Assembly: GCF_048264555.1 (NCBI RefSeq)
Contig: NZ_JBLXCX010000008.1
Span: 16,414-80,413, forward strand
Direction: 5' to 3'
Length of the DNA: 64,000 nucleotides
Source of the DNA: Kordiimonas sp.
GTDB taxonomy: Bacteria; Pseudomonadota; Alphaproteobacteria; Sphingomonadales; Kordiimonadaceae
Positions 20,957 through 51,246 of this stretch are shown here, piece after piece; positions within the stretch are counted from its first letter, which is position 1; each line of letters starts with the position of its first letter. The translations under genes and the position numbers were made by a program. A model generated the notes under the pieces. The model saw only the letters and a program-made list of their open reading frames with translations, did no database searches and was not told the origin of the DNA.

Positions 20957-21370
20957 TCAGGCACTTTCGGGTTTTGACGAGCTGCTTGTTGGCAATCTGT
21001 ACAGATAAACCGAAACAGAAAAGAACAAGGCAGCCAACAGCGTGAGCAGGGGCCATGGCGTGGCCAGATACCAGAGAACAACCCAATTGACCGTCAGCAT
21101 AGCCCAAGCCAGTCGTTTGGCCGCGATGGGTAGGCTGTGCTCCCGTTGCCAGCGCCGGATCGCGGCTCCGTGCCGGGGGTGCGCGACAAGCCATTGCGCG
21201 AACCGCGAGTCCGCTTGTGTCGCTCCCCAGAAGCCTAGTAGCAGAAAAGGTGTTGTAGGTAAAAGCGGCAGGAAAGCGCCCGTGATGCCAAGAGCGAAAC
21301 TCCCAAATGCCAGCAGGCGGTAGAAGCCTCGGCGGTGGTGCGACCAAATGTATCGAATCGTACTTTTCAT
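20957..21370 (-). CDS. YbaN/DUF454 inner-membrane protein
   Basis: GAFLPLLPTTPFLLL and WLVAHPRHG motifs. Confidence 0.9.
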   Translation of the reverse strand: MKSTIRYIWSHHRRGFYRLLAFGSFALGITGAFLPLLPTTPFLLLGFWGATQADSRFAQWLVAHPRHGAAIRRWQREHSLPIAAKRLAWAMLTVNWVVLWYLATPWPLLTLLAALFFSVSVYLYRLPTSSSSKPESA

Positions 21371-24607: not shown

Positions 24608-24621
24608 TTGATCCTGCTCAA
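24608..24621 (+). promoter_or_regulatory. FNR-type box
   Basis: TTGAT-CCTG-CTCAA, one mismatch, ~60 bp before ATG 24677. Confidence 0.6.
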
Positions 24622-24676: not shown

Positions 24677-25024
24677 ATGGTAGAGCAATCAGATAGTGGC
24701 AAACCTCTGAATGACCTCGAACGCTATATAGAGATATGTAACGAAGCCTTGGCGCGCAGCTGCGACCAGTTTCCATATAACCGTATATGGCAGGCTGCCA
24801 GCGAAGCGCAGGCTGGCAGGGGCGTTGAATTGGTGTTGGTTGATGAAATGCCGGTTTCAACATGTGAAGTGACTGTTTATAAGGACCATATAGAGCGAGG
24901 ACATGAGGTTGGCGATGCGCCTGTACTGCGCCTGAACAAGAGCTATCTTGAAGATGTGGTCAGCAACCCACAAAAATATATCGACAACCCTACCTTGATA
25001 GATTGGGGTTGGTTGTTCAGGTAG
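24677..25024 (+). CDS. Hypothetical 115-aa protein
   Basis: GGGAG RBS before ATG 24677; C-terminal YLEDVVSNPQKYIDNPTLIDWGWL. Confidence 0.75.
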   Translation: MVEQSDSGKPLNDLERYIEICNEALARSCDQFPYNRIWQAASEAQAGRGVELVLVDEMPVSTCEVTVYKDHIERGHEVGDAPVLRLNKSYLEDVVSNPQKYIDNPTLIDWGWLFR

Positions 25025-28728: not shown

Positions 28729-29706
28729 TTAGCCTCCGATGGCGGAAAGGTTGCGGGTCATTCCAGCATTACCGAAAGCAAGTTGATGGTTGGCATCCTT
28801 GCTACGCACGGCAGAGATGAGCCTTTCCCGTAGCTCCTCAAATTGTTCGTCAGACTGCAGATAGTCGCGTAGAGGAATGCCAAAGTTTCCAAATAAACAC
28901 AGGTGTAGATTGCCCTGACTCGAGAAGCGCAACCGATTACAACTTTTGCAGAAATCTTTGGAATAGGGCGCGATAAGGCCGATCCTCCCAGCGTGGTTGG
29001 TGTGCATGAATTCATTGGCCGGGCCGCTATCCGCCGCTTTGATGGTTGGGGCCCAGCCGAGTATTTTCAACCGATCAGCGATCACGTCGGTGGAAATATG
29101 GTGGTTACGGAAAAAAGCCGCATGATCGCCAGTTTCCATCAACTCGATGAAGCGGATGGAGACAGGAAGGGTTTTTGTGAGCGTTATAAAGTCCGCCACT
29201 TCGTGATCATTGATATCCTTCATATAAACCACGTTAATCTTCACATCGCTGAATCCCGCCTCTAGCGCCCGATGGATTCCGTGAAGCACTTCATGGCAAC
29301 GGTCGTGGCCAGTGATGCGTCTGAATGCTTCCCGGTTCAGGCTGTCGAGGCTCACGTTGATGGCGTTGAGCCCAAGTCCATGCCAGCGTTCCACGCGTTC
29401 GTGTAGCCTGTAGCCGTTGGTGGTAAGGGCGAGTTTCTTCAGCCCGCCCACCGTGCTGATGTCGGCGACGATATCGTCGAAATCCGGCCGGATGGTTGGT
29501 TCGCCGCCGGTTAGCCTGATTTTCCTAAGTCCAAGTGAAACAAAAGCCCTGGCGGCGCGACGCAATTCGTCCCTACTCAGGGGTGGCGGGGAACCACATT
29601 TCTTGAAACCTTCCGGCAGACAGTAGCTACAGCGAAAATTGCAGGCGTCTGTCACCGACAGGCGCAGATACTGGAATGTGCGATCGAAACCGTCCGTCAG
29701 GTGCAC
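28729..29706 (-). CDS. moaA: GTP 3',8-cyclase
   Basis: YLRLSVTDACNFRCSYC, RLTGGEP and FCKSCNRLR...LCL motifs; AGGAG RBS before GTG 29706. Confidence 0.95.
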   Translation of the reverse strand: MHLTDGFDRTFQYLRLSVTDACNFRCSYCLPEGFKKCGSPPPLSRDELRRAARAFVSLGLRKIRLTGGEPTIRPDFDDIVADISTVGGLKKLALTTNGYRLHERVERWHGLGLNAINVSLDSLNREAFRRITGHDRCHEVLHGIHRALEAGFSDVKINVVYMKDINDHEVADFITLTKTLPVSIRFIELMETGDHAAFFRNHHISTDVIADRLKILGWAPTIKAADSGPANEFMHTNHAGRIGLIAPYSKDFCKSCNRLRFSSQGNLHLCLFGNFGIPLRDYLQSDEQFEELRERLISAVRSKDANHQLAFGNAGMTRNLSAIGG

Positions 29707-29711
29707 AGCAG

Positions 29712-29845
29712 ATCTCCTTTCCAATCACGAGAGGCTTGGCAGTTTCCCTATCAAACCCGGCGGCGTTGTGCCGCGGCCCCGGTGCCATATTCTGAGTAAG
29801 GGGAGCCCGAACGTAGGCACCGAGGCTTCGGAGTTGAGCACTCGA
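29712..29845 (-). ncRNA. Moco (molybdenum cofactor) riboswitch
   Basis: Minus strand reads ACTCCGAAGC...CCTACG...TATGG...GGAAAC...GCCTCTCGTGATTGGAAAGGAG, the conserved elements of the Moco RNA motif, ending on the moaA RBS. Confidence 0.75.
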
Positions 29846-29880: not shown

Positions 29881-29894
29881 TTGATGCAGATCAA
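29881..29894 (-). promoter_or_regulatory. FNR-type box for the moaA operon
   Basis: Perfect TTGAT-GCAG-ATCAA. A -41.5 centring predicts a start near 29846, the riboswitch 5' end. Confidence 0.85.
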
Positions 29895-29896: not shown

Positions 29897-31507
29897 TTAG
29901 TTGCGAAATGAGATATCGCTTAGTTCGGGACGAGGGCATTCTTCGGTGCTGGCGCGTACGCACTGGATGGCAAGTTCCACATCACAAAATTCACATAGAG
30001 AGAAAGGATCCGGAGCTATCACATGGTCACTAGAGACTTCGAAGCCATCCTGCTTGAACTTTTGCAGAGTTCTTGAAAAGGTTTCAGGGCGCATGTCCAG
30101 ATAGGAGGCTATGATCGACTTTTCATAAGGAAGATATATTGTGCCGTCGGGCGTGCGCTGGTTGAGTGCAAGCCTAAGCAAAAACCAGCCAACCCGTTCC
30201 TGGGCGGTTTTGAGGCGAGAAAGCTCCAGCTGCTGCACCAAGCGCTGTGAACGCAATGAAACGGTATTAAGCATGCTGACAGCGAGTTGTGGACTGGATT
30301 GTATGCGCTGGCGGATAACGGGTGCGGGGATGGAGAGTAGCAATGCGTTTTCAACAACTTGAGCGCTTACGGGAGTAGGTACATCGAGGAAAACAGCGGC
30401 CTCTAGTAGTGTTTCTCCGCTCCCTAGCATCTGGAGGATTGCTTCCTCGCCGGTCTCCAGTCCGTTGTAGACCTTCACCCAGCCTTGTAAAACGACATAG
30501 AGCCGTGTGGCAGGCTCGTCTCGTAAGAACAATAGCTTGTCTTTTTCATATTCGCGGATCTGAGCGAAGGATAAAAGTTCGTCCAACTCGTGGTCATCGA
30601 TTGCAGCGAGCATGGGTAGCGACTTAAGAAACGGCCGATACTGTGTAATCTGGGCTACTGCTCCTTTTTGCCGCGTCGCAGGCGCGGGCGAATTTGCTGG
30701 TTTGGCGGCAGTTTGCACTAGGCCCTCTACCAGCTTTTGCTCTGCCTCTCTCAGTCCATCGATCATGCGGGACAGGAGCTCAAACCATGCTTCGCCTGTA
30801 TATTTTTCGATTTCACCGAGTGGTGCGCCATCTTCCAGAAGGGTGTTCACTTCGGCTAGGGCATCAAAATCGCCTGCTTCGACATGTTCCTCTACAATCT
30901 GGATCTGGTCAGCAGAGGCAAGCGCTTTAAATGTCTCGAAATAGGCTTTCTGCTCGGCGATGAGAGCGACGAAACGGTCGCAAAATTCCTGATTCCGGAA
31001 TGAATAGGTGTGGAAGCCGCGCGCTCCTAGTGCCCGTTCCATGCCGAGGCGCTCTTTCCATTGCAGGAAGTTGGAATAGGCTGAAACAAGTTTCGAGTCG
31101 TAGCCTTCCTGTCGCTGTGCCAGTTCGATCATTATGTCGATTGTGGGCACGGTGAAGGAGAATGTATAGGTGTTCAGCGCCTGAGTGTAGCGGTAAGCCA
31201 GCAGGCGTATTTTATCTCGCGTTTGGTCGATTTGCTCAAATTTGTTGATTAGGGGCATCAGACGGTCGGACCAAAAACCGTTGGGCAACCCCTTTTTTGC
31301 TTCGTCGCGTGCAAGGAAGGTGCGCAGCTCAGCCACAGCGTCGTTCACCCGGCCATTTTGGGTGTCGTATTGACGCGCAAAGATTTTACCAAGGCTGTCG
31401 AGGAAAAGGCCAGCACAGCCGCGCTCGCGCTGAAGCTGATGAACAGTCTCGCCCAGCTTGTTCAGCAGGCTTCCTGCCAGGTCAGTTTTCTCTGTCACTA
31501 TGCTCAA
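29897..31507 (-). CDS. NIT-domain (nitrate/nitrite sensing) + Crp/Fnr transcriptional regulator fusion
   Basis: N-terminal VHQLQRERG and WKERLGMERA (NIT), cNMP-binding domain (VVLQGWVKVY...GETLLEAAVF), HTH IASYLDMRPETFSRTL, and Cys-rich tail. Confidence 0.85.
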   Translation of the reverse strand: MSIVTEKTDLAGSLLNKLGETVHQLQRERGCAGLFLDSLGKIFARQYDTQNGRVNDAVAELRTFLARDEAKKGLPNGFWSDRLMPLINKFEQIDQTRDKIRLLAYRYTQALNTYTFSFTVPTIDIMIELAQRQEGYDSKLVSAYSNFLQWKERLGMERALGARGFHTYSFRNQEFCDRFVALIAEQKAYFETFKALASADQIQIVEEHVEAGDFDALAEVNTLLEDGAPLGEIEKYTGEAWFELLSRMIDGLREAEQKLVEGLVQTAAKPANSPAPATRQKGAVAQITQYRPFLKSLPMLAAIDDHELDELLSFAQIREYEKDKLLFLRDEPATRLYVVLQGWVKVYNGLETGEEAILQMLGSGETLLEAAVFLDVPTPVSAQVVENALLLSIPAPVIRQRIQSSPQLAVSMLNTVSLRSQRLVQQLELSRLKTAQERVGWFLLRLALNQRTPDGTIYLPYEKSIIASYLDMRPETFSRTLQKFKQDGFEVSSDHVIAPDPFSLCEFCDVELAIQCVRASTEECPRPELSDISFRN

Positions 31508-31662: not shown

Positions 31663-31676
31663 TTGATATGGATCAA
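31663..31676 (+). promoter_or_regulatory. FNR-type box for the narK-nar operon
   Basis: Perfect TTGAT-ATGG-ATCAA. Confidence 0.85.
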
Positions 31677-31742
31677 TCACGAATTTCCGTAAGCCGTCAC
31701 AATGTCCTCCATAACCGGATAACCCCATGTCAGGAGGACAAG

Positions 31743-33053
31743 GTGAACGGCACTATGACAACACCACTGGAAAAGCGTCGCGCACTAACCGCGAGCACGC
31801 TGGCTTTTACCGTTTGTTTCGCTGTTTGGACAATTTTTTCCATTATTGGTGTCAAGATTAAGGCTGACTTGGGCCTGAGCGACACCCAGTTCGGTGTGCT
31901 TGTGGCGACGCCGGTGCTAACAGGATCGCTTAGTCGGCTTTTCCTCGGCATCTGGACCGACCAATATGGTGGCCGCATGGTCTATGTTCTGCAAATGCTG
32001 GCTACAGCGCTTGCTGCCTATCTTCTGACCCTGGTGACGACATACGAAATGTTCCTCGTTGCGGCCCTCGGGGTTGGTCTGGCGGGTGGCAGCTTCGCGG
32101 TCGGGGTGGCTTACGTCTCGCGCTGGTATCCGAAAGAGCAACAGGGTACTGCGCTCGGCATCTTCGGTATGGGCAACGTCGGCGCTGCCGTCACCAACTT
32201 CGCAGCGCCGCTCCTTTTAGTCGTGCTCGGGGGTGCGTGGCAAAGTGTGGCACAGGTTTATGCAGTCACACTCGCGGTAACTGCTGTGCTGTTCTTCATT
32301 TTTACCAAAGATGATCCTGTTCATGCTTCGAACAAGCTGACAGGTGCTAAACACCCCTCTTTCGTCGAGCAGCTCGAGCCACTCAAGAACCTGCAGGTTT
32401 GGCGCTTCTCGCTATATTACTTCTTTGTGTTCGGGGCCTATGTCGCGCTCGCACTTTGGCTCCCTCGCTACTATGTCGGTGCTTACGGACTCGAGTTGGC
32501 AACCGCTGGCATGCTTGCTGCCGCGTACGCGTTGCCTGGCTCAATCTTCCGGGCGTTTGGTGGTTGGCTGTCCGATAAGTACGGCGCCCGCGCGGTCATG
32601 TACTGGACGTTCATTGCCAGTGTTGCTTGCACCTTCATAATGTCATATCCGGCCACAGATTATACCGTCGCGGGCATCACAGGACCCATTAACTTCAACA
32701 TTACTATTCCGCTTGAAGTGTTTGTGGGACTGACAATCATTCTTGGCTTCTTCATGTCGCTCGGTAAAGCCGCTGTCTACAAGCACATCCCCGTCTATTA
32801 TCCGGATCATGTGGGTTCAGTCGGTGGCATGGTGGGACTGATAGGTGGCCTTGGCGGCTTCTTCCTGCCGATCACCTTTGGCATGATGAATGATTTTATT
32901 GGTGTATGGACCAGTTGCTTCATGCTGCTGACTATCCTTGTTGCCATTGCCCTGACATGGATGCACTTCGCCATCCGTCGGCTTGATAAGAAACGCATTC
33001 CCGAGCTTCGCGGCCCCCGCAATCTGCCGGAACTTGAAGGGCTCAAGGGCTGA
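31743..33053 (+). CDS. narK: NarK1-type nitrate transporter (MFS)
   Basis: AFTVCFAVWTIFSIIG and GIFGMGNVGAA motifs; AGGAGG RBS before GTG 31743. Confidence 0.9.
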   Translation: MNGTMTTPLEKRRALTASTLAFTVCFAVWTIFSIIGVKIKADLGLSDTQFGVLVATPVLTGSLSRLFLGIWTDQYGGRMVYVLQMLATALAAYLLTLVTTYEMFLVAALGVGLAGGSFAVGVAYVSRWYPKEQQGTALGIFGMGNVGAAVTNFAAPLLLVVLGGAWQSVAQVYAVTLAVTAVLFFIFTKDDPVHASNKLTGAKHPSFVEQLEPLKNLQVWRFSLYYFFVFGAYVALALWLPRYYVGAYGLELATAGMLAAAYALPGSIFRAFGGWLSDKYGARAVMYWTFIASVACTFIMSYPATDYTVAGITGPINFNITIPLEVFVGLTIILGFFMSLGKAAVYKHIPVYYPDHVGSVGGMVGLIGGLGGFFLPITFGMMNDFIGVWTSCFMLLTILVAIALTWMHFAIRRLDKKRIPELRGPRNLPELEGLKG

Positions 33054-33092
33054 GGCCCTTGTCTCCCTCTCGGTCCGACAAGGAGAAGAACT

Positions 33093-34736
33093 ATGTTTGA
33101 AAAGAAACAGAATATGGAATTGCAGGTCAAAGGCCGCGATCTCTATGGCTGGAACCCTGATGACGACGCTCAGTGGGCGTCAGTGGGCCAGAAGATAGCC
33201 AGCCGAAACCTGTGGATCTCGATCCCGTCGCTCTTGTGCGGCTTCGCGGTCTGGCTTTATTGGGGCATCATTACGGTGCAGATGCTGAACCTTGGGTTTC
33301 ATTTCTCGCGTGATGAACTGTTCTCTCTTACAGCTATCGCCGGGCTTTCCGGTGCCACCCTGCGCATTCCGAGTTCGTTTTTTATCCGTCTGGCGGGAGG
33401 GCGGTACACCATCTTTTTAACCACCACCTTGCTTATCGTTCCGGCCGCAGCTGCAGGGTTTCTTCTTCAAGATGTGAATACACCATTGTGGCAGTTTCAA
33501 CTGGTGGCCTTGCTGTCTGGCTTAGGTGGCGGCAACTTCGCGTCTTCGATGTCAAATATTAGTTTCTTCTATCCGCGTAAGATACAGGGGTATGCGCTAG
33601 GTATGAATGCGGGCCTCGGCAATTTCGGTGTCACGACGATGCAGATATTGGTGCCGCTGGTGATGACCTTTGCACTATTCGGCGGCGATAGCATGACGTT
33701 GCAGGCCATGTCCGGCACGTTGATTGGCAAAATACCTGCCGGTACAGAGACCTATATCTTCAACGCCGGTTGGGTTTGGTTGCTGCTTTTGATCCCTCTG
33801 GCTTTTGCCACCTGGTTTGGCATGAACACTATCCGGGACGAGCATGTTTCGCCAGATACTGACAGTGCGGTTTCAGCTTTTAGCAAAATTTGCGGATTGT
33901 TGTTAATCGGCTTTGCCACGGCGGCTTTTGGGTTGTGGTTAATGCTGCCGGCTAGCTTTGGCGGCTCCGGTTGGGAAGTGTCGAAATTCATCGTGTTACC
34001 GCTGGTGATTGCGTTGACAGTCTTTGCCATGAAACTAATTCCCGGCAGAATCCAGACAAATCTGGCACGTCAGTTTAAGATTTTTGGTAACAAGCATACT
34101 TGGTCGATGTCGCTCATCTATACGATGACCTTTGGTTCTTTTATTGGCTTTTCAGCCGCGCTGCCATTGGCGATTAAGGTGGTGTTTGGATATCAGCATC
34201 TCCTGGTAGAAGGGGTAATGACCCACACGACGCCGAACCCCAGTGGGCCCAGTGCACTGATGTATGCGTGGATGGGGCCCTTTATCGGCGCATTAGTTCG
34301 GCCTGTCGGCGGCATGTTGGCTGATCGTTGGGGCGGGGCACGTGTAACGCAAATCATTAGCGTGATCATGGCTGGGGCCGCACTGGGTGTCGCTTACTAT
34401 ATGAAAGCAGCCTACGGTTCGGCCACACCGGAAGATTATTTCTGGCCATTCCTGGTCCTGTTCATCGTGCTGTTTGCCGCCACAGGTGTTGGCAATGGCT
34501 CCACCTTCCGAACTATCGCCATGGTTTTTGATAAGGAACAGACCGGCCCTGTTTTGGGTTGGACGTCGGCGGTTGCTGCCTATGGAGCGTTCTTCATTCC
34601 GCAGGTGTTTGGTGAACAAATCAAAGCCACGACCCCAGAATTCGCACTGTACGGTTTCACCATTTTCTATGGCGTTTGCATCTTGACCAACTGGTGGTTC
34701 TACCTGCGCAAAAACGCCTACGTGCAGAATCCATAA
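33093..34736 (+). CDS. narK: NarK2-type nitrate/nitrite antiporter (MFS)
   Basis: WNPDDDAQW...IASRNLWISI, GGGNFASSM and GVGNGSTF motifs. Confidence 0.9.
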   Translation: MFEKKQNMELQVKGRDLYGWNPDDDAQWASVGQKIASRNLWISIPSLLCGFAVWLYWGIITVQMLNLGFHFSRDELFSLTAIAGLSGATLRIPSSFFIRLAGGRYTIFLTTTLLIVPAAAAGFLLQDVNTPLWQFQLVALLSGLGGGNFASSMSNISFFYPRKIQGYALGMNAGLGNFGVTTMQILVPLVMTFALFGGDSMTLQAMSGTLIGKIPAGTETYIFNAGWVWLLLLIPLAFATWFGMNTIRDEHVSPDTDSAVSAFSKICGLLLIGFATAAFGLWLMLPASFGGSGWEVSKFIVLPLVIALTVFAMKLIPGRIQTNLARQFKIFGNKHTWSMSLIYTMTFGSFIGFSAALPLAIKVVFGYQHLLVEGVMTHTTPNPSGPSALMYAWMGPFIGALVRPVGGMLADRWGGARVTQIISVIMAGAALGVAYYMKAAYGSATPEDYFWPFLVLFIVLFAATGVGNGSTFRTIAMVFDKEQTGPVLGWTSAVAAYGAFFIPQVFGEQIKATTPEFALYGFTIFYGVCILTNWWFYLRKNAYVQNP

Positions 34737-34762
34737 TCGAAAAGAGGATCTGGAGAAACATC

Positions 34763-37700
34763 ATGAGCAACTTTATCGACAGGCTCTCTTATTTTAGCAA
34801 GTCTCCCGAAACATTTTCGGACGGCCATGGCATCACCACCGATGAGGATCGCTCATGGGAGAAAGCCTATCGAGGCCGCTGGTCCCACGACAAAGTGGTG
34901 CGGTCCACTCACGGCGTCAACTGCACGGGCTCTTGCAGCTGGAAAATCTATGTCAAGAACGGCCTTGTGACTTGGGAAACCCAGCAAACGGATTACCCAA
35001 AAACACGGCCCGACCTGCCTAACCACGAACCACGTGGATGCGCCCGGGGAGCGAGCTATAGCTGGTATCTTTATAGCGCGGCACGGCTGAAATACCCGAT
35101 GGTGCGCGGCCGTCTCATCGAGCTATGGCGTAAGGCAAAGGCCGAACTTGGCGACCCGGTTGATGCCTGGGGTAGCATTGTATCCGATCCGAAGAAGGCA
35201 CGTGAGTACAAGAAGGTGCGCGGCCTTGGTGGTTTTGTGCGCGCAAGCTGGGACGAAGTGAACGAGCTGATCGCCGCCTCCAATGTCTACACAGCGAAGG
35301 AACACGGGCCGGACCGGATTGTGGGTTTCTCACCCATACCAGCCATGTCCATGGTTTCCTATGCTGCGGGCAGCCGTTACCTGTCGCTCATTGGCGGAGT
35401 GTGCATGTCCTTTTATGACTGGTACTGCGATCTGCCGCCGTCATCGCCACAAACATGGGGCGAGCAAACGGATGTGCCTGAAAGCGCGGACTGGTACAAT
35501 TCGGGTTATATCATTGCCTGGGGTTCGAACGTGCCACAAACACGTACGCCGGATGCGCACTTCTTCACTGAGGTACGTTACAAGGGCACCAAGACCGTTT
35601 CCGTCACGCCTGACTATTCCGAAGTAGCGAAGCTGACAGACATTTGGCTCAACCCACGTCAAGGCACGGATAGCGCCATGGCTATGGCCATGGGCCATGT
35701 GGTGTTGAAGGAGTTCCACACGGCTGGCAAGTCGGAGTATTTTGACGACTATTGCCGCATGTATACCGATATGCCGTTCCTCATACGTCTTGACGAGAAA
35801 GATGGCAAATTGGTGCCGGGCCGCCTACTGCGTGCGTCCGATATGAAAAACGCTCTTGGCGAAGCCAAAAACGCCGAATGGAAGGCTGTCATCCTTGATG
35901 GCAATACGGGCGACGTGTGTGTGCCAAATGGCACTATCGGTTCACGCTGGGACGAAAGCCGCAAGTGGAACCTTGAGTTAAAGAATGTGGCGGACGGCAG
36001 TGATGTCTGGCCGAAAGTTACCCTCGTTGAGAGCAGCGACACAGTCGAGGCTGTGGCGTTCCCGTATTTCGGTAATATCGTCAACGACCAGCCTATCTTC
36101 AAACATACCGACCACGGTAGCGTGCTTGAGCGCAATGTACCTATCAAGACGATTGAGACTAAGGACGGCCCAGTGAAGGTGGCGACGGTTTTTGACCTGA
36201 TGGTTGCGAACTATGGTGTGGACCGTGGTCTGGGTGGTGACAATGTAGCCGCAAGCTATGACGACGATGTACCCTATACTCCGGCATGGCAGGAAAAAAT
36301 CACTGGCGTAGACCGTCGCAAGGTCATTCAAGTTGCTCGCGAGTTTGCCACCAATGCGGACCAGACGCGGGGTCGCTCAATGGTGATCCTCGGCGCCGCC
36401 GTCAATCACTGGTACCACATGGACATGATCTATCGGGGTATCATGAACCTCTTGATCATGTGCGGCTGTGTGGGCAAGTCGGGAGGTGGTTGGGCCCACT
36501 ATGTGGGGCAGGAAAAGCTGCGTCCGCAGACGGGCTGGCAACCATTAGCCTTCGGGCTGGATTGGTCGCGTCCGCCTCGGCACATGAACTCCACGAGCTT
36601 CTTCTACAACCACTCAAACCAGTGGCGGTATGAAAAGCTTGACGTGGATGAAATCCTCTCCCCGCTTGCGGATAAGGAGAAGTGGAAGAATACCACACTC
36701 CTGGACTGCAATGTTCAATCCGAACGCATGGGCTGGTTGCCTTCTGCACCCCAACTCAATGACAACCCGTTAAGGGTCGCCAGAGCTGCGGAAAAGGCAG
36801 GAGTAAAAGCTGCCGACTATGTAGTAGACAAATTGAAGTCAGGCGAGCTGGCCTTTGCCTGTGAAGATCCGGATGATCCGAAAAACTTCCCACGCAATAT
36901 GTTTATCTGGCGTTCGAATATCCTGGGTTCGTCAGGTAAGGGGCATGAATATATGCTCAAGCATCTGCTTGGCACCCAGCATGGCCTTCTTGGTAAGGAT
37001 ATGGGGGAAACCGGCGGCTTAAGGCCGAGCGAGGTCGTGTGGCATGACGAAGCACCCGAAGGCAAACTCGATCTGGTGGTCACGCTCGACTTCCGTATGT
37101 CTACCACATGCGTGTATTCGGATATCGTTCTGCCCTCTGCCACTTGGTATGAGAAGAACGACCTCAACACGTCTGACATGCATCCCTTCATCCACCCGCT
37201 GACTCGCGCAGTAGACCCAGCATGGGAAAGCCGCAGTGACTGGGACATATACCGAGGTCTGGCTGAGAAATTCTCGGAGGTTTGTGTCGGTCACCTTGGT
37301 GTTGAGAAGGATGTGGTCACCTTGCCAATCTTGCACGATACGCCGGGCGAAATGGCCCAGCCACTTGGTGTCACTGACTGGAAGAAGGGTGAATGTGAGC
37401 CCATCCCAGGTAAGACCATGCCTTCCATCATTGAAGTAGAGCGGGACTACCCCAACACCTACAAGCGTTTCATCGCGCTCGGCCCGCTCATGAGCAAGGT
37501 CGGCAACGGCGGCAAGGGCATTGCCTGGAACACGGAAGAGGAAGTGGAGCTTCTCGGCCGATTGAACGGTGTGCATGACGAGACCGGTGCCAATGAAGGC
37601 ATGCCTATGATCGTGACGGACGTGAATGCGACCGAGGTTGTGCTTTCGCTCGCGCCAGAAACCAATGGCCAAGTGGCGGTCAAGTCTTGGGCAGCGCTCG

Positions 37701-38509
37701 GCAAGATCACCGGCAGAGAGCATACCCATCTCGCTAAGTCGAAGGCAGAGGAGAAAATCCGCTTCCACGACATTAAGGCTCAGCCGCGCAAGATTATTTC
37801 TTCGCCTACTTGGTCGGGCCTCGAGGATGAACATGTTAGCTATAACGCTGGCTATACCAACGTGCATGAGCTTATTCCATGGCGCACACTCACTGGCCGC
37901 CAGCAGTTCTATCAGGATCACGAATGGATGCGTGACTTTGGGGAGGGCTTCTGTGTTTACAAGGCACCTGTGAACACCAAAACTATCGCTCCGGTCATCG
38001 ATAAATTTGGTGATGGTCAGAAACAGGTGGCGCTTAATTGGATTACTCCACACCAGAAATGGGGCATCCACTCAACCTATTCCGATAACCTGCTGATGCT
38101 GACCCTTAATCGGGGTGGTCCCGTCGTGTGGATGTCGGAGATCGACGCTCGCAAGATTGATGTAAAGGATAATGACTGGATCGAGCTCTATAACTCGAAC
38201 GGCGCAATCATGGCCCGGGCGGTGGTAAGCCAGCGTGTGCCGGAAGGCATGACAATGATGTATCACGCGCAAGAAAAGATCATCAACACCCCGATATCAA
38301 AAACAACTGGAGGTCGCGGCGGTATCCACAACTCCGTTACACGGGCTGTGGTGAAGCCAACGCATATGATCGGTGGATATGCTCAGCTTTCCTATGGCTT
38401 TAATTACTACGGAACCGTGGGATCAAACCGGGATGAATTTGTGGTGGTCCGCAAGGCCGAAAATGTTGAGTGGGGCGAGGAACTCGCGACCACGACGGCA
38501 GCCGAATAG
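34763..38509 (+). CDS. narG: Respiratory nitrate reductase alpha subunit
   Basis: RSTHGVNCTGSCSWKIYVK, SFYDWYCDLPPSSPQTWGEQTD and TPHQKWGIHSTY motifs; GGAG RBS before ATG 34763. Confidence 0.98.
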   Translation: MSNFIDRLSYFSKSPETFSDGHGITTDEDRSWEKAYRGRWSHDKVVRSTHGVNCTGSCSWKIYVKNGLVTWETQQTDYPKTRPDLPNHEPRGCARGASYSWYLYSAARLKYPMVRGRLIELWRKAKAELGDPVDAWGSIVSDPKKAREYKKVRGLGGFVRASWDEVNELIAASNVYTAKEHGPDRIVGFSPIPAMSMVSYAAGSRYLSLIGGVCMSFYDWYCDLPPSSPQTWGEQTDVPESADWYNSGYIIAWGSNVPQTRTPDAHFFTEVRYKGTKTVSVTPDYSEVAKLTDIWLNPRQGTDSAMAMAMGHVVLKEFHTAGKSEYFDDYCRMYTDMPFLIRLDEKDGKLVPGRLLRASDMKNALGEAKNAEWKAVILDGNTGDVCVPNGTIGSRWDESRKWNLELKNVADGSDVWPKVTLVESSDTVEAVAFPYFGNIVNDQPIFKHTDHGSVLERNVPIKTIETKDGPVKVATVFDLMVANYGVDRGLGGDNVAASYDDDVPYTPAWQEKITGVDRRKVIQVAREFATNADQTRGRSMVILGAAVNHWYHMDMIYRGIMNLLIMCGCVGKSGGGWAHYVGQEKLRPQTGWQPLAFGLDWSRPPRHMNSTSFFYNHSNQWRYEKLDVDEILSPLADKEKWKNTTLLDCNVQSERMGWLPSAPQLNDNPLRVARAAEKAGVKAADYVVDKLKSGELAFACEDPDDPKNFPRNMFIWRSNILGSSGKGHEYMLKHLLGTQHGLLGKDMGETGGLRPSEVVWHDEAPEGKLDLVVTLDFRMSTTCVYSDIVLPSATWYEKNDLNTSDMHPFIHPLTRAVDPAWESRSDWDIYRGLAEKFSEVCVGHLGVEKDVVTLPILHDTPGEMAQPLGVTDWKKGECEPIPGKTMPSIIEVERDYPNTYKRFIALGPLMSKVGNGGKGIAWNTEEEVELLGRLNGVHDETGANEGMPMIVTDVNATEVVLSLAPETNGQVAVKSWAALGKITGREHTHLAKSKAEEKIRFHDIKAQPRKIISSPTWSGLEDEHVSYNAGYTNVHELIPWRTLTGRQQFYQDHEWMRDFGEGFCVYKAPVNTKTIAPVIDKFGDGQKQVALNWITPHQKWGIHSTYSDNLLMLTLNRGGPVVWMSEIDARKIDVKDNDWIELYNSNGAIMARAVVSQRVPEGMTMMYHAQEKIINTPISKTTGGRGGIHNSVTRAVVKPTHMIGGYAQLSYGFNYYGTVGSNRDEFVVVRKAENVEWGEELATTTAAE

Positions 38510-38520
38510 GAGTAGATGAG

Positions 38521-40077
38521 ATGAAAATTCGTGCACAAATCGGCATGGTGCTCAATCTCGATAAATGCATCGGTTGTCACACATGCTCTGTTACTTGCAA
38601 GAACGTTTGGACCAGCCGTGAGGGTGTTGAATACGCATGGTTCAACAATGTGGAGACCAAACCAGGTGTTGGTTACCCGCGCGACTGGGAAAACCAAGAC
38701 CAGTGGAACGGTGGCTGGGAACGCAAGTCAGGTGGTAAAATCCAGCCAAAAATGGGCGGTAAGATCCGCCTGCTGGCAAAAATTTTCGCCAACCCGGATT
38801 TGCCGGAGATAGATGACTATTACGAGCCCTTCACCTTCGATTATGACCACCTGCAAAACAGCCCCGAGGTGAAGACGCCACCAACGGCGCGGGCACACTC
38901 GGTCATTACCGGCCAAAAAATGGAAAAGCCGGAATGGGGGCCGAACTGGGAAGAAATCCTTGGTGGCGAGTTCGAGAAACGCAGCAAGGACTATAACTTC
39001 AAGGAGGTCGAGAAGGACATATACGGCCAGTTCGAAAACACCTTCATGATGTATCTGCCGAGGCTCTGTGAACACTGCCTTAACCCAACCTGTGTGGCGG
39101 CTTGCCCATCAGGTGCCATTTACAAGCGGGAGGAGGACGGCATTGTGCTCATCGACCAGGACAAATGTCGTGGCTGGCGCATGTGCGTCTCGGGCTGTCC
39201 GTACAAGAAAATCTATTTCAACTGGCAGTCCGGCAAGTCGGAGAAATGCACCTTCTGTTTCCCGCGCATTGAGAATGGCGAGCCGACCGTATGCTCGGAA
39301 ACCTGCGTGGGCCGCATCCGTTATCTCGGTGTGTTACTTTATGATGCTGAGCGCATCCAGGAAGCTGCCGCAACCGAGGACCCGGAAGATCTATACAAGG
39401 CCCAGTGCGACATCTTCCTCGACCCGCACGATCCAAAAGTGATTGAGCAGGCCCGCAAAGATGGTGTGCCGGATAGTTGGCTCGACGCTGCTAAACGTTC
39501 GCCTGTTTACAAGATGGCGATCGACTGGAAGGTAGCCTTCCCGTTGCATCCGGAATATCGCACTTTGCCTATGGTCTGGTATATCCCGCCATTATCGCCG
39601 ATTCAGAGCGCCTATGCAGAAGGCAAGGTTGCCGGTGACGACATCATGCCAGATGTGAAAAGCCTGCGCATACCTGTCAAGTATCTCGCTAATATGCTGA
39701 CTGGAGGTCGGGAAGAGCCAGTGGTGCATGCGCTTGAGCGCATGCTGGCCATGCGGAGCTTCATGCGGGGCAAAACCATCGCAGGGTCTGGAGATAAAGC
39801 GGTCCTGGACCGTGTTGGTCTTGATGAACGCATGGTGGCGGACATGTACAAGATCATGGCTCTTGCCGACTATGACGACCGCTTCGTCATTCCTACTAAT
39901 CACCGTGAATATGCGGGCAAAACCCCGTTCGACAACGATATTGCGTTCGAGAGCCGGTCTGCCTGTGGCTTCAGCTTTGGCAACGGTTGTTCTAGCGGTT
40001 CGGCGCGTTCAGGCGGCCTGTTTGGCGGCCCGACCCACAAAAACACTATGAGCGGCAATGTTGGGAGGCAAAAATGA
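38521..40077 (+). CDS. narH: Respiratory nitrate reductase beta subunit
   Basis: LNLDKCIGCHTCSVTCKNVW, CEHCLNPTCVAACP and CRGWRMCVSGCPYKK motifs. Confidence 0.98.
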   Translation: MKIRAQIGMVLNLDKCIGCHTCSVTCKNVWTSREGVEYAWFNNVETKPGVGYPRDWENQDQWNGGWERKSGGKIQPKMGGKIRLLAKIFANPDLPEIDDYYEPFTFDYDHLQNSPEVKTPPTARAHSVITGQKMEKPEWGPNWEEILGGEFEKRSKDYNFKEVEKDIYGQFENTFMMYLPRLCEHCLNPTCVAACPSGAIYKREEDGIVLIDQDKCRGWRMCVSGCPYKKIYFNWQSGKSEKCTFCFPRIENGEPTVCSETCVGRIRYLGVLLYDAERIQEAAATEDPEDLYKAQCDIFLDPHDPKVIEQARKDGVPDSWLDAAKRSPVYKMAIDWKVAFPLHPEYRTLPMVWYIPPLSPIQSAYAEGKVAGDDIMPDVKSLRIPVKYLANMLTGGREEPVVHALERMLAMRSFMRGKTIAGSGDKAVLDRVGLDERMVADMYKIMALADYDDRFVIPTNHREYAGKTPFDNDIAFESRSACGFSFGNGCSSGSARSGGLFGGPTHKNTMSGNVGRQK

Positions 40078-40751
40078 ATACGATCAAACTTCTAGGGATG
40101 CTTCTTTCCTACCCGAGTGTGGAGTTGCAACAGCACGCGGGTGAGATCAGGGAAGCCATTGCAGGTGACGGACTTTTGCCCGCCAAGCTGCACAAGCCGC
40201 TATTCGCCTTAATCGACGATCTGGGTCGACGCAATCTGCTGCGCCTGCAGGAGGAATATGTCGCAACTTTTGACCGCTCACGTGTGCATTCACTTTACCT
40301 GTTTGAGCATGTGCACGGTGAAAGCCGGGACCGTGGTCAGGCCATGGTTGATCTCATGGGGCTGTATAAAACTGCCGGAATCAAGCTCGCGCAACGTGAA
40401 CTGCCAGATTATCTACCAGTGTTTCTTGAATTCCTGTCTCTCCGTCCATTTGATGAGGCGCAGGATTATCTTGGCGAGGTTGCCCACATACTTGAGGCGA
40501 TTGGGGCAAAACTGAAACTGCGTAAGAACCCGTACCAGCATGTGTTCAGGGCACTTGTGGCCCTGACGAATGTCAAAATCGACCCAAAATTTGTTGAACA
40601 GGCAGTTGAGGATGCCCGCCGTGAGGATACGAGCCTCGCTGCGCTTGACAAAGAGTGGGAAGAAACACCGGCCTTCGACGGCATTGGTGCGGATTGCTCG
40701 GTATGCCCGCAAGGCACACCGGCCAAACCCCGCCAAACCGCAACGCATTAG
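40074..40751 (+). CDS. narJ: Nitrate reductase maturation chaperone
   Basis: SLYLFEHVHGESRDRGQAMVDL and ELPDYLPVFLEFL motifs. Confidence 0.95.
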   Translation: MNTIKLLGMLLSYPSVELQQHAGEIREAIAGDGLLPAKLHKPLFALIDDLGRRNLLRLQEEYVATFDRSRVHSLYLFEHVHGESRDRGQAMVDLMGLYKTAGIKLAQRELPDYLPVFLEFLSLRPFDEAQDYLGEVAHILEAIGAKLKLRKNPYQHVFRALVALTNVKIDPKFVEQAVEDARREDTSLAALDKEWEETPAFDGIGADCSVCPQGTPAKPRQTATH

Positions 40752-40765
40752 AATAGGAGCGGGAT

Positions 40766-41449
40766 ATGAGCAATTATCTCAACGATTTTTTCTTCGGAAT
40801 CTATCCCTACCTCGCCATCGTTATTATGGTAATGGGGTCGATCCTCAGGTACGATCAAGACCCCTATAGCTGGAAAGCGGGCTCAAGCCAATTGTTGCGC
40901 TCGCGAGGCATGCGCGCTGGTAGCAACCTTTTCCATGTTGGCATCATTTTACTCTTCTTCGGTCATTTTGTTGGCCTTCTGACGCCGGAGCCGGTGTACC
41001 ACGCCGTCATGACAGCGGCCACCAAACAGACGCTTGCCATGGTGGCGGGTGGTATTTTTGGTACGCTCTGCTTCGTTGGCATGACCATACTGATCATCCG
41101 CCGACTGACGGACCCGCGCATCCGCGCCACCAGCCGTCCGGCGGATATCATGATTCTTCTCGTGCTGTATGTTCAGCTGATACTCGGCCTCGCGACCATT
41201 CCTTTCTCTGCCCAGCATGCCGACGGCAGTTCGATGATCGCACTTGCTAACTGGGCGCAGCATATTGCCACCTTCCGCACGGGCGCTGCCGACTTTGTGC
41301 TGCATGAACCATTGGTGTTCAAACTGCATATCGTGTTGGGGCTTACCATCTTTGTATTGTTTCCATTCACGCGGCTGGTGCACGTCTTGTCGGCTCCGAT
41401 CAAGTATCTGTTTCGGTCCGGCTACCAGATCGTACGCAGGAGGAGTTGA
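40766..41449 (+). CDS. narI: Respiratory nitrate reductase gamma subunit (cytochrome b)
   Basis: YPYLA...RYD.DPYSWKAGSSQ, FHVGI...GH and FPFTRLVHVLS motifs. Confidence 0.97.
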   Translation: MSNYLNDFFFGIYPYLAIVIMVMGSILRYDQDPYSWKAGSSQLLRSRGMRAGSNLFHVGIILLFFGHFVGLLTPEPVYHAVMTAATKQTLAMVAGGIFGTLCFVGMTILIIRRLTDPRIRATSRPADIMILLVLYVQLILGLATIPFSAQHADGSSMIALANWAQHIATFRTGAADFVLHEPLVFKLHIVLGLTIFVLFPFTRLVHVLSAPIKYLFRSGYQIVRRRS

Positions 41450-41451
41450 TC

Positions 41452-41904: not shown

Positions 41905-41934
41905 GCTGGTGCGATACGGCTTAGGGTCAGCAAG

Positions 41935-42588: not shown

Positions 42589-42631
42589 GAAAGGTGGAAA
42601 AATACATGTATTCTTCATATTTTTCATCGAC

Positions 42632-42645
42632 TTGACTTGGATCAG
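42632..42645 (+). promoter_or_regulatory. Degenerate FNR-type box
   Basis: TTGAC-TTGG-ATCAG, ~60 bp before the porin start. Confidence 0.45.
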
Positions 42646-45245: not shown

Positions 45246-45259
45246 TTGATCCAGATCAA
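45246..45259 (+). promoter_or_regulatory. FNR-type box
   Basis: Perfect TTGAT-CCAG-ATCAA, ~65 bp before ATG 45325. Confidence 0.85.
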
Positions 45260-46344: not shown

Positions 46345-46351
46345 GAGAGAG

Positions 46352-51232: not shown

Positions 51233-51246
51233 TTGATACAAGTCAA
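51233..51246 (-). promoter_or_regulatory. FNR-type box for ubiTUV
   Basis: TTGAC-TTGT-ATCAA on the minus strand, ~60 bp before ubiT. Confidence 0.75.

What the first reader, a model, noticed from the sequence alone, without database searches (positions are those of the whole stretch)
29897..31507. One-component NIT-Crp/Fnr regulator with a C-terminal Cys cluster: possible nitrate-AND-anoxia sensor
Seen: a soluble NIT-like domain fused to a Crp/Fnr body. The recognition helix has ETFSR (FNR ExxSR type, which reads TTGAT-N4-ATCAA), and the tail CEFC-x7-C-x7-C has four Cys. Established: NIT normally appears in NasR (ANTAR), chemoreceptors and kinases; Bacillus Fnr binds its O2-labile Fe-S cluster through C-terminal Cys; Paracoccus NarR lacks NIT. 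Inference: a single protein may integrate nitrate and O2 signals, replacing NarXL plus FNR, and drive the six FNR-type boxes here (24608, 29881, 31663, 42632, 45246, 51233) as a portable regulon.
Basis: partly seen in the sequence, partly recalled or inferred. Interest (0 to 1): 0.72.

Follow-up and report, generated by a model that had tools for sequence, protein, structure and literature searches.

The report
Nitrate-sensor domain fused to FNR-type regulator
This gene encodes an uncharacterised regulator that joins a nitrate/nitrite-sensing (NIT) domain to an FNR-type DNA-binding protein ending in four invariant cysteines. It almost always sits back-to-back with the respiratory nitrate reductase operon in marine Alphaproteobacteria, so it is a good candidate for a single protein that switches on nitrate respiration.

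Summary
ORF 29897..31507 (-) encodes a soluble 536-aa protein with a NIT domain, a flexible linker, a Crp/Fnr beta-roll and a Crp-type HTH. An ETFSR recognition helix and a C-terminal L-C-x-[FY]-C-D-x6-C-x7-C-P tail are invariant in 116 homologues down to about 41% identity.

The family occurs in 156 species genomes, all Alphaproteobacteria by the titles of the 80 loci kept. In 63 of 66 loci with enough flank it lies divergent from narK-narGH. TTGAT-N4-ATCAA boxes are 14.5-fold enriched in that shared promoter. In the window, both flanking perfect boxes sit at class-II activator distance. One lies 42.5 nt before a Moco riboswitch leading moaA. The other lies 41.5 nt before the predicted narK start.

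The Cys tail is not specific to NIT fusions. NIT-less relatives carry it next to nar, nrdDG and ccoNOQP, which are typical FNR targets. This supports an O2/NO-sensing metal site but does not prove one.

Best reading: a one-component nitrate sensor in the genomic position of Paracoccus NarR, probably with a second redox input. Not supported: "six" boxes (three perfect, two with one mismatch, one at chance level) and "portable". Replacement of host FNR was not tested. No literature on this architecture was found. It is a new variant of known kinds.

The parts
29897..31507 (-). NIT-Crp/Fnr regulator gene (536 aa; stop codon at 29897-29899; alternative GTG start at 31498)
30719..31447 (-). NIT domain (residues 21-263). 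Signature motifs HxLQxERG (23-30) and KExxGxERAxGxxGF (151-165). E28/R29 and E157/R158 align with NasR E49/R50 and E175/R176.
30620..30718 (-). Pro/Ala/Gln-rich flexible linker (residues 264-296); pLDDT below 50 for 269-282
30296..30556 (-). Crp/Fnr beta-roll (cNMP_binding-like, residues 318-404). By my reading against E. coli CRP (from memory), the cAMP-contacting Arg-Ser is missing: the sequence reads PVSAQ.
29993..30199 (-). HTH_Crp_2 winged helix (residues 437-505); recognition helix ETFSR at 30071-30085
29933..29995 (-). C-terminal Cys tail C505-x2-C508-D509-x6-C516-x7-C524-P525; candidate metal (Fe-S) site
31663..31676 (.). Perfect FNR-type box TTGATATGGATCAA in the divergent regulator/narK promoter. 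Centre is 41.5 nt before a predicted narK start site at about 31711. A -10-like CACAAT lies at 31698-31703.
29881..29894 (.). Perfect FNR-type box (TTGATCTGCATCAA on the - strand), 2 nt after the regulator's stop codon. Centre is 42.5 nt before the 5' end of the Moco riboswitch.
29698..29845 (-). Moco riboswitch (RF01055, 72 bits) leading moaA
26895..29724 (-). moaA-mobA-moeA (molybdenum cofactor genes), downstream of the regulator on the same strand
31752..41449 (+). narK1-narK2-narGHJI, divergent from the regulator. The narK1 start at 31752 is taken from homologue alignment.
45246..45259 (.). Perfect FNR-type box 66 nt before the ATG of an epimerase / B12-radical-SAM / MBL operon (45325-48564)
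51233..51246 (.). One-mismatch box TTGATACAAGTCAA, 56 nt before the ATG of ubiT-ubiU-ubiV (48573-51177, - strand)
24608..24621 (.). One-mismatch box TTGATCCTGCTCAA, just before a small ORF (about 24677-25024, +) with no Pfam family
42632..42645 (.). Two-mismatch site TTGACTTGGATCAG before the porin gene at 42706; not distinguishable from chance

Best explanation
The gene encodes a cytoplasmic one-component transcription activator of nitrate respiration.

Shown:
- It is a NIT sensor domain joined by a disordered linker to a Crp/Fnr dimerisation/beta-roll domain and an FNR-type HTH (E--SR helix).
- It ends in an invariant Cys4(+Asp, +Pro) tail.
- It occupies the genomic position that NarR holds in Paracoccus, divergent from narK-narGHJI with an FNR-type box in between. 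In the Kordiimonas and Emcibacter-type loci it is followed by a second box driving a Moco-riboswitch-moaA operon.

Inferred:
- Nitrate or nitrite brought in by NarK binds the NIT pocket (E28/R29, E157/R158).
- This releases the Crp module from an inhibited state, as proposed for NasR.
- The dimer then binds TTGAT-N4-ATCAA centred near -41.5 and activates narK-narGHJI and moaA-mobA-moeA as a class-II activator.
- The C-terminal Cys4 site most likely holds an O2- and/or NO-labile Fe-S cluster that is needed for an active DNA-binding form. Full activation would then need nitrate AND low oxygen.

My confidence is about 0.7 for the nitrate-sensor/nar-activator part and about 0.45 for the Fe-S redox-sensor part. 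The 0.5 given below is a judgement that weights these parts; it is not the probability that all of them hold together, which I put at about 0.35 (see the novel case).
For: Architecture and conservation:
- Domain hits and conserved residues.
- Both NIT signature motifs are kept, and the NasR pocket residues E175/R176 (PMC7496416) align with invariant or near-invariant E157/R158. The pseudo-symmetric E28/R29 align with NasR E49/R50.
- Soluble protein with a disordered linker.
- The C-terminal module has a Crp fold (Foldseek; PDB sequence hits 3FX3/3H3Z 3e-33, DNR 2e-23).

Distribution and synteny:
- 156 species genomes, all Alphaproteobacteria by the titles of the 80 loci kept, mostly marine isolates and MAGs.
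- Divergent narK/narG in 63/66 loci; moaA follows in 28/69.

Boxes:
- 43 boxes in 30.7 kb of upstream windows (1.40 per kb) against 0.096 per kb elsewhere in the same loci.
- Boxes precede narK1 in 28/49 loci and moaA in 20/30.
- In 26 of 78 loci a box lies within 300 nt after the stop codon; all but about five of these are Kordiimonas- or Emcibacter-type loci with moaA downstream.
- In the window, one box centre is 42.5 nt before the Moco riboswitch 5' end and the other 41.5 nt before a start site predicted from a -10-like CACAAT.

Comparators:
- P. denitrificans NarR has the same locus layout with a perfect box. NarR is described as the nitrate/nitrite-responsive replacement of NarXL in alpha-proteobacteria (PMC8139620).

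Cys tail:
- Invariant, with Pro after the last Cys.
- Shared by genuine stand-alone relatives next to nar (P0153, P0140, P0154, P0175), nrdDG (P0173, P0273) and ccoNOQP (P0179).
- There is precedent for a C-terminal Fe-S site in Bacillus Fnr (PMC3520743) and for an Fe-S Crp-family NO sensor, HcpR2 (PMC5701242).
Against: - There is no biochemical or expression evidence of any kind.
- Any FNR/FixK/Dnr-class paralogue in the host would recognise the same boxes.
- 33 of 74 loci have no box with one mismatch or fewer upstream.
- A Cys4 site with a CxxC knuckle could equally be structural Zn or a thiol switch.
- The spacing (2, 7, 7) differs from Bacillus Fnr, and representatives with a Bacillus-like tail group elsewhere in my rough tree.
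- I could not obtain model coordinates to check that the four Cys converge.
- A weak sigma-70-like promoter for the regulator itself lies far from the box, so autoregulation is doubtful.
- NIT ligand specificity outside NasR is largely untested.
Confidence: 0.5

Rival explanations
1. Nitrate-only sensor. The NIT domain is the single input, making the protein a NarR analogue with an explicit receptor. The Cys4 tail is a structural Zn site, or another non-sensing site, that stabilises the extension after the wing. Oxygen control of the same promoters comes from a separate FnrL/FixK-type protein elsewhere in the genome, as FnrP plus NarR do in Paracoccus.
For: - In Paracoccus, nar needs both FnrP (O2) and NarR (nitrate) (PMC8139620), and the NarR locus layout is the same.
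- A CxxC followed by two spaced Cys is compatible with Zn.
- The boxes before ubiTUV and the radical-SAM operon look like a general anaerobic regulon, which would normally belong to a global FNR (E. coli ubiUVT and Fnr, PMC10470549).
Against: - NIT-less proteins with the same tail have no other recognisable sensor, yet sit beside nrdDG, ccoNOQP and nar. This suggests the tail itself, or the beta-roll, carries the anaerobic signal.
- The invariant Asp after the second Cys and Pro after the last are, to my knowledge, more typical of Fe-S ligand motifs.
- No other Crp/Fnr gene is found in this 64-kb respiratory region.
Confidence: 0.25
2. Nitrate plus NO/nitrosative sensor. The tail binds an Fe-S cluster whose physiological ligand is NO, as in HcpR2 or NsrR, rather than O2. 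The protein would then tune nitrate reduction to downstream NO accumulation.
For: - An Fe-S Crp-family regulator, HcpR2, is modelled as NO-responsive (PMC5701242).
- The closest characterised solved relative of the Crp module is the NO-sensor-class DNR.
- nnrS, norB and ric genes are neighbours in the window and in some loci.
Against: - A dedicated NsrR (Rrf2) sits next to ric-norB in the window.
- Stand-alone tail-bearing relatives are beside nrdDG and ccoNOQP, which to my knowledge are O2-regulated rather than NO-regulated genes.
Confidence: 0.1
3. The FNR-type boxes belong to another regulator. The NIT-Crp protein binds a different, unrecognised site, or acts as a repressor or anti-activator, for example blocking nar or Moco expression when nitrate is absent.
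For: - 33/74 loci lack a good box upstream.
- The box before moaA almost abuts, and in relatives overlaps, the regulator's stop codon. It could be conserved for moaA alone.
Against: - The E--SR helix is invariant. By established knowledge of FNR, FixK and Dnr, this helix reads TTGAT half-sites.
- Boxes are 14.5-fold enriched exactly in the shared promoter and sit at activator distance.
Confidence: 0.1
4. The Cys tail is a thiol-disulphide redox switch, as described for CprK and Lactobacillus FLP (from memory), not a metal site.
For: A CxxC motif is present and all four Cys are invariant.
Against: Two further invariant Cys at fixed 7-residue spacing, with a conserved Asp and Pro, fit a tetrahedral metal site better. 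The cytoplasm of a marine aerobe is reducing.
Confidence: 0.05

Closest known systems
NarR of Paracoccus denitrificans / P. pantotrophus (Crp/Fnr family, nitrate/nitrite-responsive activator of narKGHJI)
   Same: - A Crp/Fnr protein with an E--SR helix (ESLSR), encoded divergently from narK-narG with a perfect TTGAT-N4-ATCAA box in between.
- Described as the alpha-proteobacterial substitute for NarXL (PMC8139620).
   Different: - Only 26% identical over 215 aa.
- NarR is about 234 aa, with no NIT domain and no C-terminal Cys.
- To my knowledge, how NarR perceives nitrate is not established. Here an explicit nitrate-receptor domain is fused on.
NasR of Klebsiella oxytoca (NIT-ANTAR one-component nitrate/nitrite sensor, PDB 4AKK)
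   Same: - A cytoplasmic NIT domain at the N-terminus, followed by a disordered linker and then the output domain.
- Both signature motifs and the predicted pocket residues are conserved.
- It is a one-component design.
   Different: - The output is a Crp/Fnr DNA-binding module, not an ANTAR RNA-binding domain.
- The target is respiratory nar, not assimilatory nas.
- There is an additional Cys4 site.
Bacillus subtilis / B. cereus Fnr (C-terminal [4Fe-4S] Crp/Fnr O2 sensor)
   Same: The Cys cluster lies in an extension after the HTH rather than at the N-terminus. It regulates nitrate respiration genes (PMC3520743).
   Different: - Spacing is C-x2-C-x7-C-x7-C with four invariant Cys, against C-x4-C-x2-C-x3/4-C with three Cys plus Asp141 as ligands.
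- This family is proteobacterial.
- Representatives with Bacillus-like tails fall in a different group of my rough tree.
- Metal content here is unknown.
E. coli / Aliivibrio FNR and alpha-proteobacterial FnrL/FnrP/FixK
   Same: Same fold, the E--SR helix, the TTGAT-N4-ATCAA target, and class-II promoter geometry.
   Different: There is no N-terminal Cys-x2-Cys-x5-Cys motif; the N-terminus is replaced by a 260-aa NIT domain. NCBIfam scores are far below every equivalog cut-off (best is FtrB at 113 bits against a cut-off of 211).
SPOA0323 of Ruegeria pomeroyi (PDB 3FX3/3H3Z) and FtrB-like Crp/Fnr proteins
   Same: The closest solved sequence relatives of the Crp module (E=3e-33, 33% identity).
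   Different: Stand-alone proteins with no Cys tail and, to my knowledge, of uncharacterised function.

Membership tests
Crp/Fnr superfamily, FNR-type (E--SR) DNA-binding class | cNMP-binding-like beta-roll followed by a Crp-type winged HTH | tested here: met
   Pfam PF00027 (59.5 bits) and PF13545 (38.6 bits), both above cut-off. Foldseek top hits are all Crp/FNR structures.
Crp/Fnr superfamily, FNR-type (E--SR) DNA-binding class | Recognition helix E-x-x-S-R, which reads TTGAT half-sites | tested here: met
   ETFSR at residues 475-479; E475, T476, S478 and R479 are conserved in at least 95% of 116 homologues.
Crp/Fnr superfamily, FNR-type (E--SR) DNA-binding class | Direct binding to TTGAT-N4-ATCAA boxes | not testable with these tools
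   Only co-location is available: 14.5-fold enrichment in the shared promoter and class-II spacing.
Canonical FNR (E. coli type O2 sensor) | N-terminal Cys-x2-Cys-x5-Cys plus one central Cys ligating a [4Fe-4S] cluster | tested here: not met
   The N-terminus is a NIT domain. The only other Cys (C31, C176) are not conserved. The NCBIfam Fnr model scores 34.8 bits against a cut-off of 228.
NIT-domain sensors (NasR type) | NIT domain match with both helical-bundle signature motifs and the predicted ligand-pocket Glu-Arg pairs | tested here: met
   PF08376 at 124.5 bits against a cut-off of 24.9. It aligns to 4AKK at E=2e-12. E28/R29 and E157/R158 correspond to NasR E49/R50 and E175/R176; three are invariant and E157 is conserved in at least 95%.
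NIT-domain sensors (NasR type) | Binds nitrate and/or nitrite | not testable with these tools
   Needs ITC or thermal shift on residues 1-268.
NasR family proper (NIT-ANTAR) | C-terminal ANTAR RNA-binding output domain | tested here: not met
   No ANTAR hit; the output is cNMP_binding + HTH_Crp_2.
Bacillus-type Fnr (C-terminal Fe-S cluster) | Cys-rich extension after the HTH supplying three cluster ligands | tested here: inconclusive
   An invariant Cys4 extension is present, but with different spacing (2/7/7 against 4/2/3-4; PMC3520743). Representatives with Bacillus-like tails group separately in a rough NJ tree.
Bacillus-type Fnr (C-terminal Fe-S cluster) | Fourth ligand Asp from the sensory domain (D141), and an O2-labile [4Fe-4S] cluster | not tested
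   I held no B. subtilis Fnr sequence to align. An invariant D509 lies next to C508, but its role is unknown. Metal content needs biochemistry.
NarR (Paracoccus) | Crp/Fnr gene divergent from narK-narGHJI with an FNR-type box in the shared promoter | tested here: met
   Window; 63/66 related loci; same layout at P. denitrificans narR.
NarR (Paracoccus) | Small (about 235 aa) stand-alone Crp/Fnr protein without a Cys cluster; orthology to NarR | tested here: not met
   536 aa with NIT and a Cys4 tail; 26% identity to NarR over the Crp module.

The most novel reading that the evidence does not exclude
One polypeptide is a two-input AND gate for nitrate respiration. A cytoplasmic NIT domain reads nitrate/nitrite. 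A previously undescribed proteobacterial C-terminal Cys4 Fe-S site reads O2. That site would be a third way of building an FNR-type oxygen sensor, after the E. coli N-terminal type and the Bacillus C-terminal type. The NIT-less members of the same clade would then be the O2 sensors that control nar, nrdDG and cbb3 oxidase genes in their hosts.
Probability: 0.35. Interest if true: 0.75.

Novelty: new variant of a known kind. Interest (0 to 1): 0.6.

Why it matters
How alpha-proteobacteria that lack NarXL perceive nitrate for nar control is, to my knowledge, unresolved. NarR is known genetically, but its signal perception is not.

This family places an explicit, well-understood nitrate-receptor domain on a NarR-positioned FNR-type activator. 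That makes the question directly testable with one soluble protein and two defined promoters.

The invariant C-terminal Cys4 tail is shared with NIT-less relatives next to classic FNR targets. It may mark an unrecognised class of proteobacterial FNR-like redox sensors.

A compact one-protein nitrate (and possibly O2) switch with a known operator could also serve as a biosensor part. The family is widespread in marine sediment and hydrothermal MAGs that carry out nitrate reduction.

Tried and rejected
- **RNA evidence for start sites.** The look-up of sequencing runs returned runs marked 'DNA?' or unclassified, all held as assembled contigs, and none marked as RNA. There is therefore no start-site or expression information, and I did not lay reads.
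- **'Portable' test.** tblastn against 72,556 plasmids found no full-length copy. The best partial hits are ordinary Crp/Fnr genes without the tail (Roseibium, Ruegeria) or Thermus Crp/Fnr genes beside GAF-domain regulators.
- **A 'split' homologue (L087).** It has a separate 255-aa NIT gene followed by a 236-aa Crp gene and first looked like Rosetta-stone evidence. The two frames join through a 1-nt shift at an A-run in the linker. I treat it as a frameshifted fusion, or a sequencing error, and not as evidence.
- **Literature.** Searches for NIT + Crp/Fnr found no description of this architecture. The original NarR paper (PMC95237) is not held. One search for the Bacillus Fnr residue numbers returned only noise.
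- **Structure.** The AlphaFold model is confident (pLDDT 85.6; tail 85-97), but coordinates are not exposed. Cys-Cys distances and NIT/Crp contacts could not be measured. Foldseek only re-confirmed the Crp fold.
- **Promoter scan.** The sigma-70 consensus scan gave one weak site for the regulator gene, no better than shuffles.
Full report
**1. What is there**

ORF 29897..31507 on the minus strand encodes 536 aa from a TTG start. An identical 533-aa protein from a public assembly starts at the GTG three codons further in.

Pfam finds three domains, all well above their gathering scores:
- NIT, residues 21-263, E=1.2e-35
- cNMP_binding, residues 318-404, E=3.2e-16
- HTH_Crp_2, residues 437-505, E=1.1e-9

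No NCBIfam equivalog is reached. The best is FtrB at 113 bits against a cut-off of 211, and the Fnr model scores 35 bits against 228.

The protein has no hydrophobic segment. The NIT domain is therefore cytoplasmic, as in NasR, and not periplasmic as in chemoreceptors and kinases.

An AlphaFold model built on 67 sequences is confident (mean pLDDT 85.6). The exception is a Pro/Ala/Gln-rich linker, residues 269-282. Foldseek and PDB sequence searches place the C-terminal half firmly in the Crp/FNR fold. The closest are 3FX3/3H3Z of Ruegeria pomeroyi, then DNR, then Aliivibrio FNR. The N-terminal half matches only NasR (4AKK).

**2. Conservation**

A search of about 5.8 billion proteins gave 189 relatives. 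All 120 listed have the same domains, apart from one partial sequence (P0046) that ends before the HTH. None has more than a generic name.

In 116 full-length homologues, down to about 41% identity, the following are invariant or nearly so:
- the recognition helix E475-T-x-S478-R479
- the tail L504-C505-x-[F/Y]-C508-D509-x6-C516-x7-C524-P525

The two other cysteines of the window protein are not conserved.

Both NIT signature motifs are invariant: H23-x-x-Q26-x-E28-R29-G30 and K151-E152-x-x-G155-x-E157-R158-A-x-G161-x-x-G164-F165. They align with NasR VHMLQCERG and KELAGQERALGALGF. After the 27-residue tag offset of the PDB chain, E157/R158 correspond to NasR E175/R176. Those residues were predicted to form the nitrate pocket (PMC7496416 citing Boudes 2012). 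E28/R29 correspond to the pseudo-symmetric E49/R50.

The beta-roll reads PVSAQ at the position I take to be the cAMP-contacting Arg-Ser of CRP. That comparison rests on my memory of the CRP sequence. If it is right, a cyclic nucleotide is not the ligand.

**3. Distribution and neighbourhood**

One scan of 185,579 species genomes found 156 with a relative. By the titles of the 80 loci kept, all are Alphaproteobacteria, most from marine isolates or MAGs. They include Kordiimonas, Pseudokordiimonas, Robiginitomaculum, Emcibacter, Henriciella, Parvularculaceae, and Hyphomicrobiales MAGs including Methyloligella and Rhodomicrobium. The window itself is Kordiimonas-like: 88% to a JGI protein and 67-70% to named Kordiimonas species.

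Neighbourhood in the 80 fetched loci:
- The gene is divergent from narK/narG within 2.5 kb in 63 of the 66 loci with at least 3 kb of upstream flank.
- moaA follows on the same strand within 1 kb in 28 of 69 loci.
- The few loci without nar still have Moco genes next door (L031 mobA, L054 moaA).

Gene order in the window:
- nsrR (Rrf2)
- ric-qnorB
- a PLP-decarboxylase
- moeA-mobA-moaA (- strand)
- the regulator (- strand)
- narK1-narK2-narGHJI
- a beta-carbonic anhydrase, a porin and nnrS
- an epimerase / B12-radical-SAM / MBL operon
- ubiV-ubiU-ubiT (- strand)
- napDABC (- strand)

No other Crp/Fnr gene was found among the ORFs scanned.

**4. The boxes**

TTGAT-N4-ATCAA occurs perfectly three times (29881, 31663, 45246) against 0.1 expected. 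Two further intergenic sites have one mismatch (24608, 51233). The site at 42632 has two mismatches, a class that is at chance frequency.

The two boxes that flank the regulator gene are the best supported.
- **moaA box (29881-29894).** Rfam finds a Moco riboswitch at 29698..29845 (-), 72 bits, leading moaA. The centre of this box is 42.5 nt upstream of the riboswitch's first base. That is what a class-II FNR-type promoter would give if transcription starts at the riboswitch.
- **narK box (31663-31676).** It is followed by a -10-like CACAAT at 31698-31703. This predicts a start near 31711, 41.5 nt from the box centre and 41 nt before the narK1 ATG.

Both boxes are conserved across the family:
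- 41 of 74 loci have a box with one mismatch or fewer within 400 nt upstream of the regulator gene.
- Density there is 1.40 per kb against 0.096 per kb in the rest of the same loci.
- Boxes precede narK1 in 28/49 loci and moaA in 20/30.
- In most Kordiimonas-type loci the moaA box abuts or overlaps the regulator's stop codon, and in Emcibacter-type loci it lies within about 50 nt after it.

The 51233 box precedes ubiTUV, the O2-independent ubiquinone pathway. In E. coli this pathway is discussed together with Fnr (PMC10470549). The 45246 box precedes a radical-SAM operon. These look like a general anaerobic regulon.

**5. The Cys tail is wider than the fusion**

An exhaustive HMMER search with residues 290-536 against 1.84 billion representatives gave 12,064 hits. 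Among the best 148:
- 39 of 46 long proteins have a C-x2-C-x(4-10)-C-x(4-10)-C tail.
- 61 of 102 short proteins also have it.
- Every long, tail-bearing representative has a NIT domain by my family HMM.

In a rough NJ tree of the Crp modules:
- The LCxFCD...C...C proteins form one contiguous group.
- NIT-bearing and NIT-less members are interleaved within it.
- That group is separate from the Cys-less SPOA0323-like group.
- It is also separate from a group with Bacillus-like CxxCx4-5C tails.

I looked up the loci of eight short members:
- Four genuine stand-alone proteins sit beside nar operons: P0153, P0154 and P0175 are divergent from narK, and P0140 lies just after narI.
- Two sit beside nrdD-nrdG (P0173, P0273).
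- One is divergent from ccoNOQP-fixG (P0179).
- One (P0143, L087) is a NIT fusion broken by a frameshift in an A-run of the linker.

To my knowledge nar, nrdDG and cbb3 oxidase are classic FNR/FixK targets. These short proteins have no other recognisable sensor. This is the best, though indirect, evidence that the tail or the module carrying it reports oxygen.

**6. Comparison with known systems**

P. denitrificans NarR was recovered from a chromosome-2 record (L093:5986-6687). It is divergent from narK-narG with a perfect TTGATCTGGATCAA in between. It is 26% identical to the window's Crp module (E=1e-22) and ends without any Cys.

The literature describes NarR as the nitrate/nitrite-responsive regulator that replaces NarXL in alpha-proteobacteria. 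It lacks an Fe-S cluster and works together with the O2 sensor FnrP (PMC8139620).

Bacillus Fnr carries a C-terminal C-x4-C-x2-C-x3/4-C extension. Its last three Cys plus Asp141 bind an O2-labile [4Fe-4S] cluster (PMC3520743). Desulfovibrio HcpR2 is a Crp-family protein with an NO-sensitive Fe-S cluster (PMC5701242).

The present family works like NarR in position and probable target. It works like NasR in its sensor, and possibly like Bacillus Fnr in its tail. It fails a defining feature of each:
- no ANTAR domain
- no N-terminal FNR motif
- not a small Cys-less NarR
- different Cys spacing and tree position from Bacillus Fnr

**7. Mechanism proposed**

Shown: the architecture, the conservation, the synteny, and the box positions.

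Inferred:
- Nitrate or nitrite imported by NarK binds the NIT pocket.
- The flexible linker lets NIT release the Crp module from an inhibited state, by analogy with the autoinhibited NasR dimer (PMC7496416).
- The dimer binds the -41.5 boxes and recruits RNA polymerase to narK-narGHJI and to the riboswitch-moaA operon. Enzyme and cofactor supply would then be induced together.
- The Cys4/Asp/Pro tail holds a redox-labile Fe-S cluster that gates DNA binding.

I give about 0.7 to the nitrate-sensor/nar-activator part and about 0.45 to the Fe-S redox part.

The main rival is a nitrate-only sensor with a structural Zn site, with oxygen control by a separate FnrL/FixK acting at the same boxes. This is the Paracoccus FnrP + NarR logic.

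**8. What is not supported**

- 'Portable regulon': there is no plasmid copy, no tRNA, no integrase or transposase among the ORFs scanned, even composition, and gene order conserved in Kordiimonas.
- 'Replaces FNR': not tested.
- Assignment of the ubiT, 45246 and 24608 boxes to this protein rather than to a global FNR is open.

**9. Novelty**

The proteins are already in public databases under generic names. Searches of 8.3 million papers found no description of a NIT-Crp/Fnr regulator. In the searches I ran, I also found no description of this proteobacterial C-terminal Cys4 Crp/Fnr clade.

It combines known modules in a new arrangement, so I rate it a new variant of a known kind. Interest is moderate to high because it is directly testable and bears on the open question of nitrate sensing in alpha-proteobacteria.

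Noticed in passing
window 29698-29845 (-): A Moco riboswitch (RF01055, 72 bits) leads moaA-mobA-moeA. Its 5' end lies 42.5 nt downstream of the centre of the FNR-type box at 29881-29894. The Moco operon therefore appears to combine FNR-type activation with riboswitch feedback, the combination of FNR control and a Moco riboswitch that I recall for E. coli moaA (not read in the papers found).
   Followed up: yes
window 20513-20953 (-), 20957-21370 (-), 21508-24553 (+): An Rrf2-family regulator that looks like NsrR (Cys-x7-Cys-x5-Cys near residues 100-115) and a DUF454 gene lie divergent from ric (ScdA/hemerythrin) and qnorB. NO detoxification here probably has its own regulator, separate from the NIT-Crp protein.
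   Followed up: partly
window 48573-51177 (-), box 51233-51246: ubiT (SCP2), ubiU and ubiV (two U32 peptidase-family genes) make up the O2-independent ubiquinone pathway. A one-mismatch FNR-type box lies 56 nt before the ubiT ATG.
   Followed up: partly
window 45325-48564 (+), box 45246-45259: An operon of an NAD-dependent epimerase, a B12-binding radical-SAM enzyme and an MBL-fold protein lies behind a perfect FNR-type box. Its function is unknown; it is presumably an anaerobic pathway.
   Followed up: no
window 24677-25024 (+): A small ORF (about 115 aa, no Pfam family) lies directly downstream of the one-mismatch box at 24608, between norB and the convergent PLP-decarboxylase gene.
   Followed up: no
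window 41446-45232 and 51371-55400: Both nitrate reductases are present: narGHJI and napDABC. Between them lie an unassigned 152-aa ORF overlapping the narI stop, a beta-carbonic anhydrase, an Alginate_exp-family porin and nnrS.
   Followed up: no
L087:5138-6711: In an AT-rich MAG (GCA_965183855.1) the NIT and Crp halves are called as two genes. The reading frames join through a 1-nt shift at an A-run in the linker. This is either a sequencing error or a recent split.
   Followed up: partly
L084, L089, L091, L092 (nar); L086, L090 (nrdDG); L088 (ccoNOQP): Stand-alone Crp/Fnr proteins of 244-268 aa carry the same LCxFCD-x6-C-x7-C tail. They sit beside nar, anaerobic ribonucleotide reductase or cbb3 oxidase genes, and may form an unrecognised FNR-like sensor clade.
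   Followed up: partly
L024 and L069: One Robiginitomaculum MAG (NORP30) carries two paralogues on different contigs. Only one of them is next to nar.
   Followed up: no
window 56019-59027 (-), 4969-7269 (+), 19729-20019 (+): A 1002-aa ORF has no Pfam family. There are two tandem DUF2336 genes. A GapR-like nucleoid protein is also present, which I take as consistent with an alphaproteobacterial origin.
   Followed up: no
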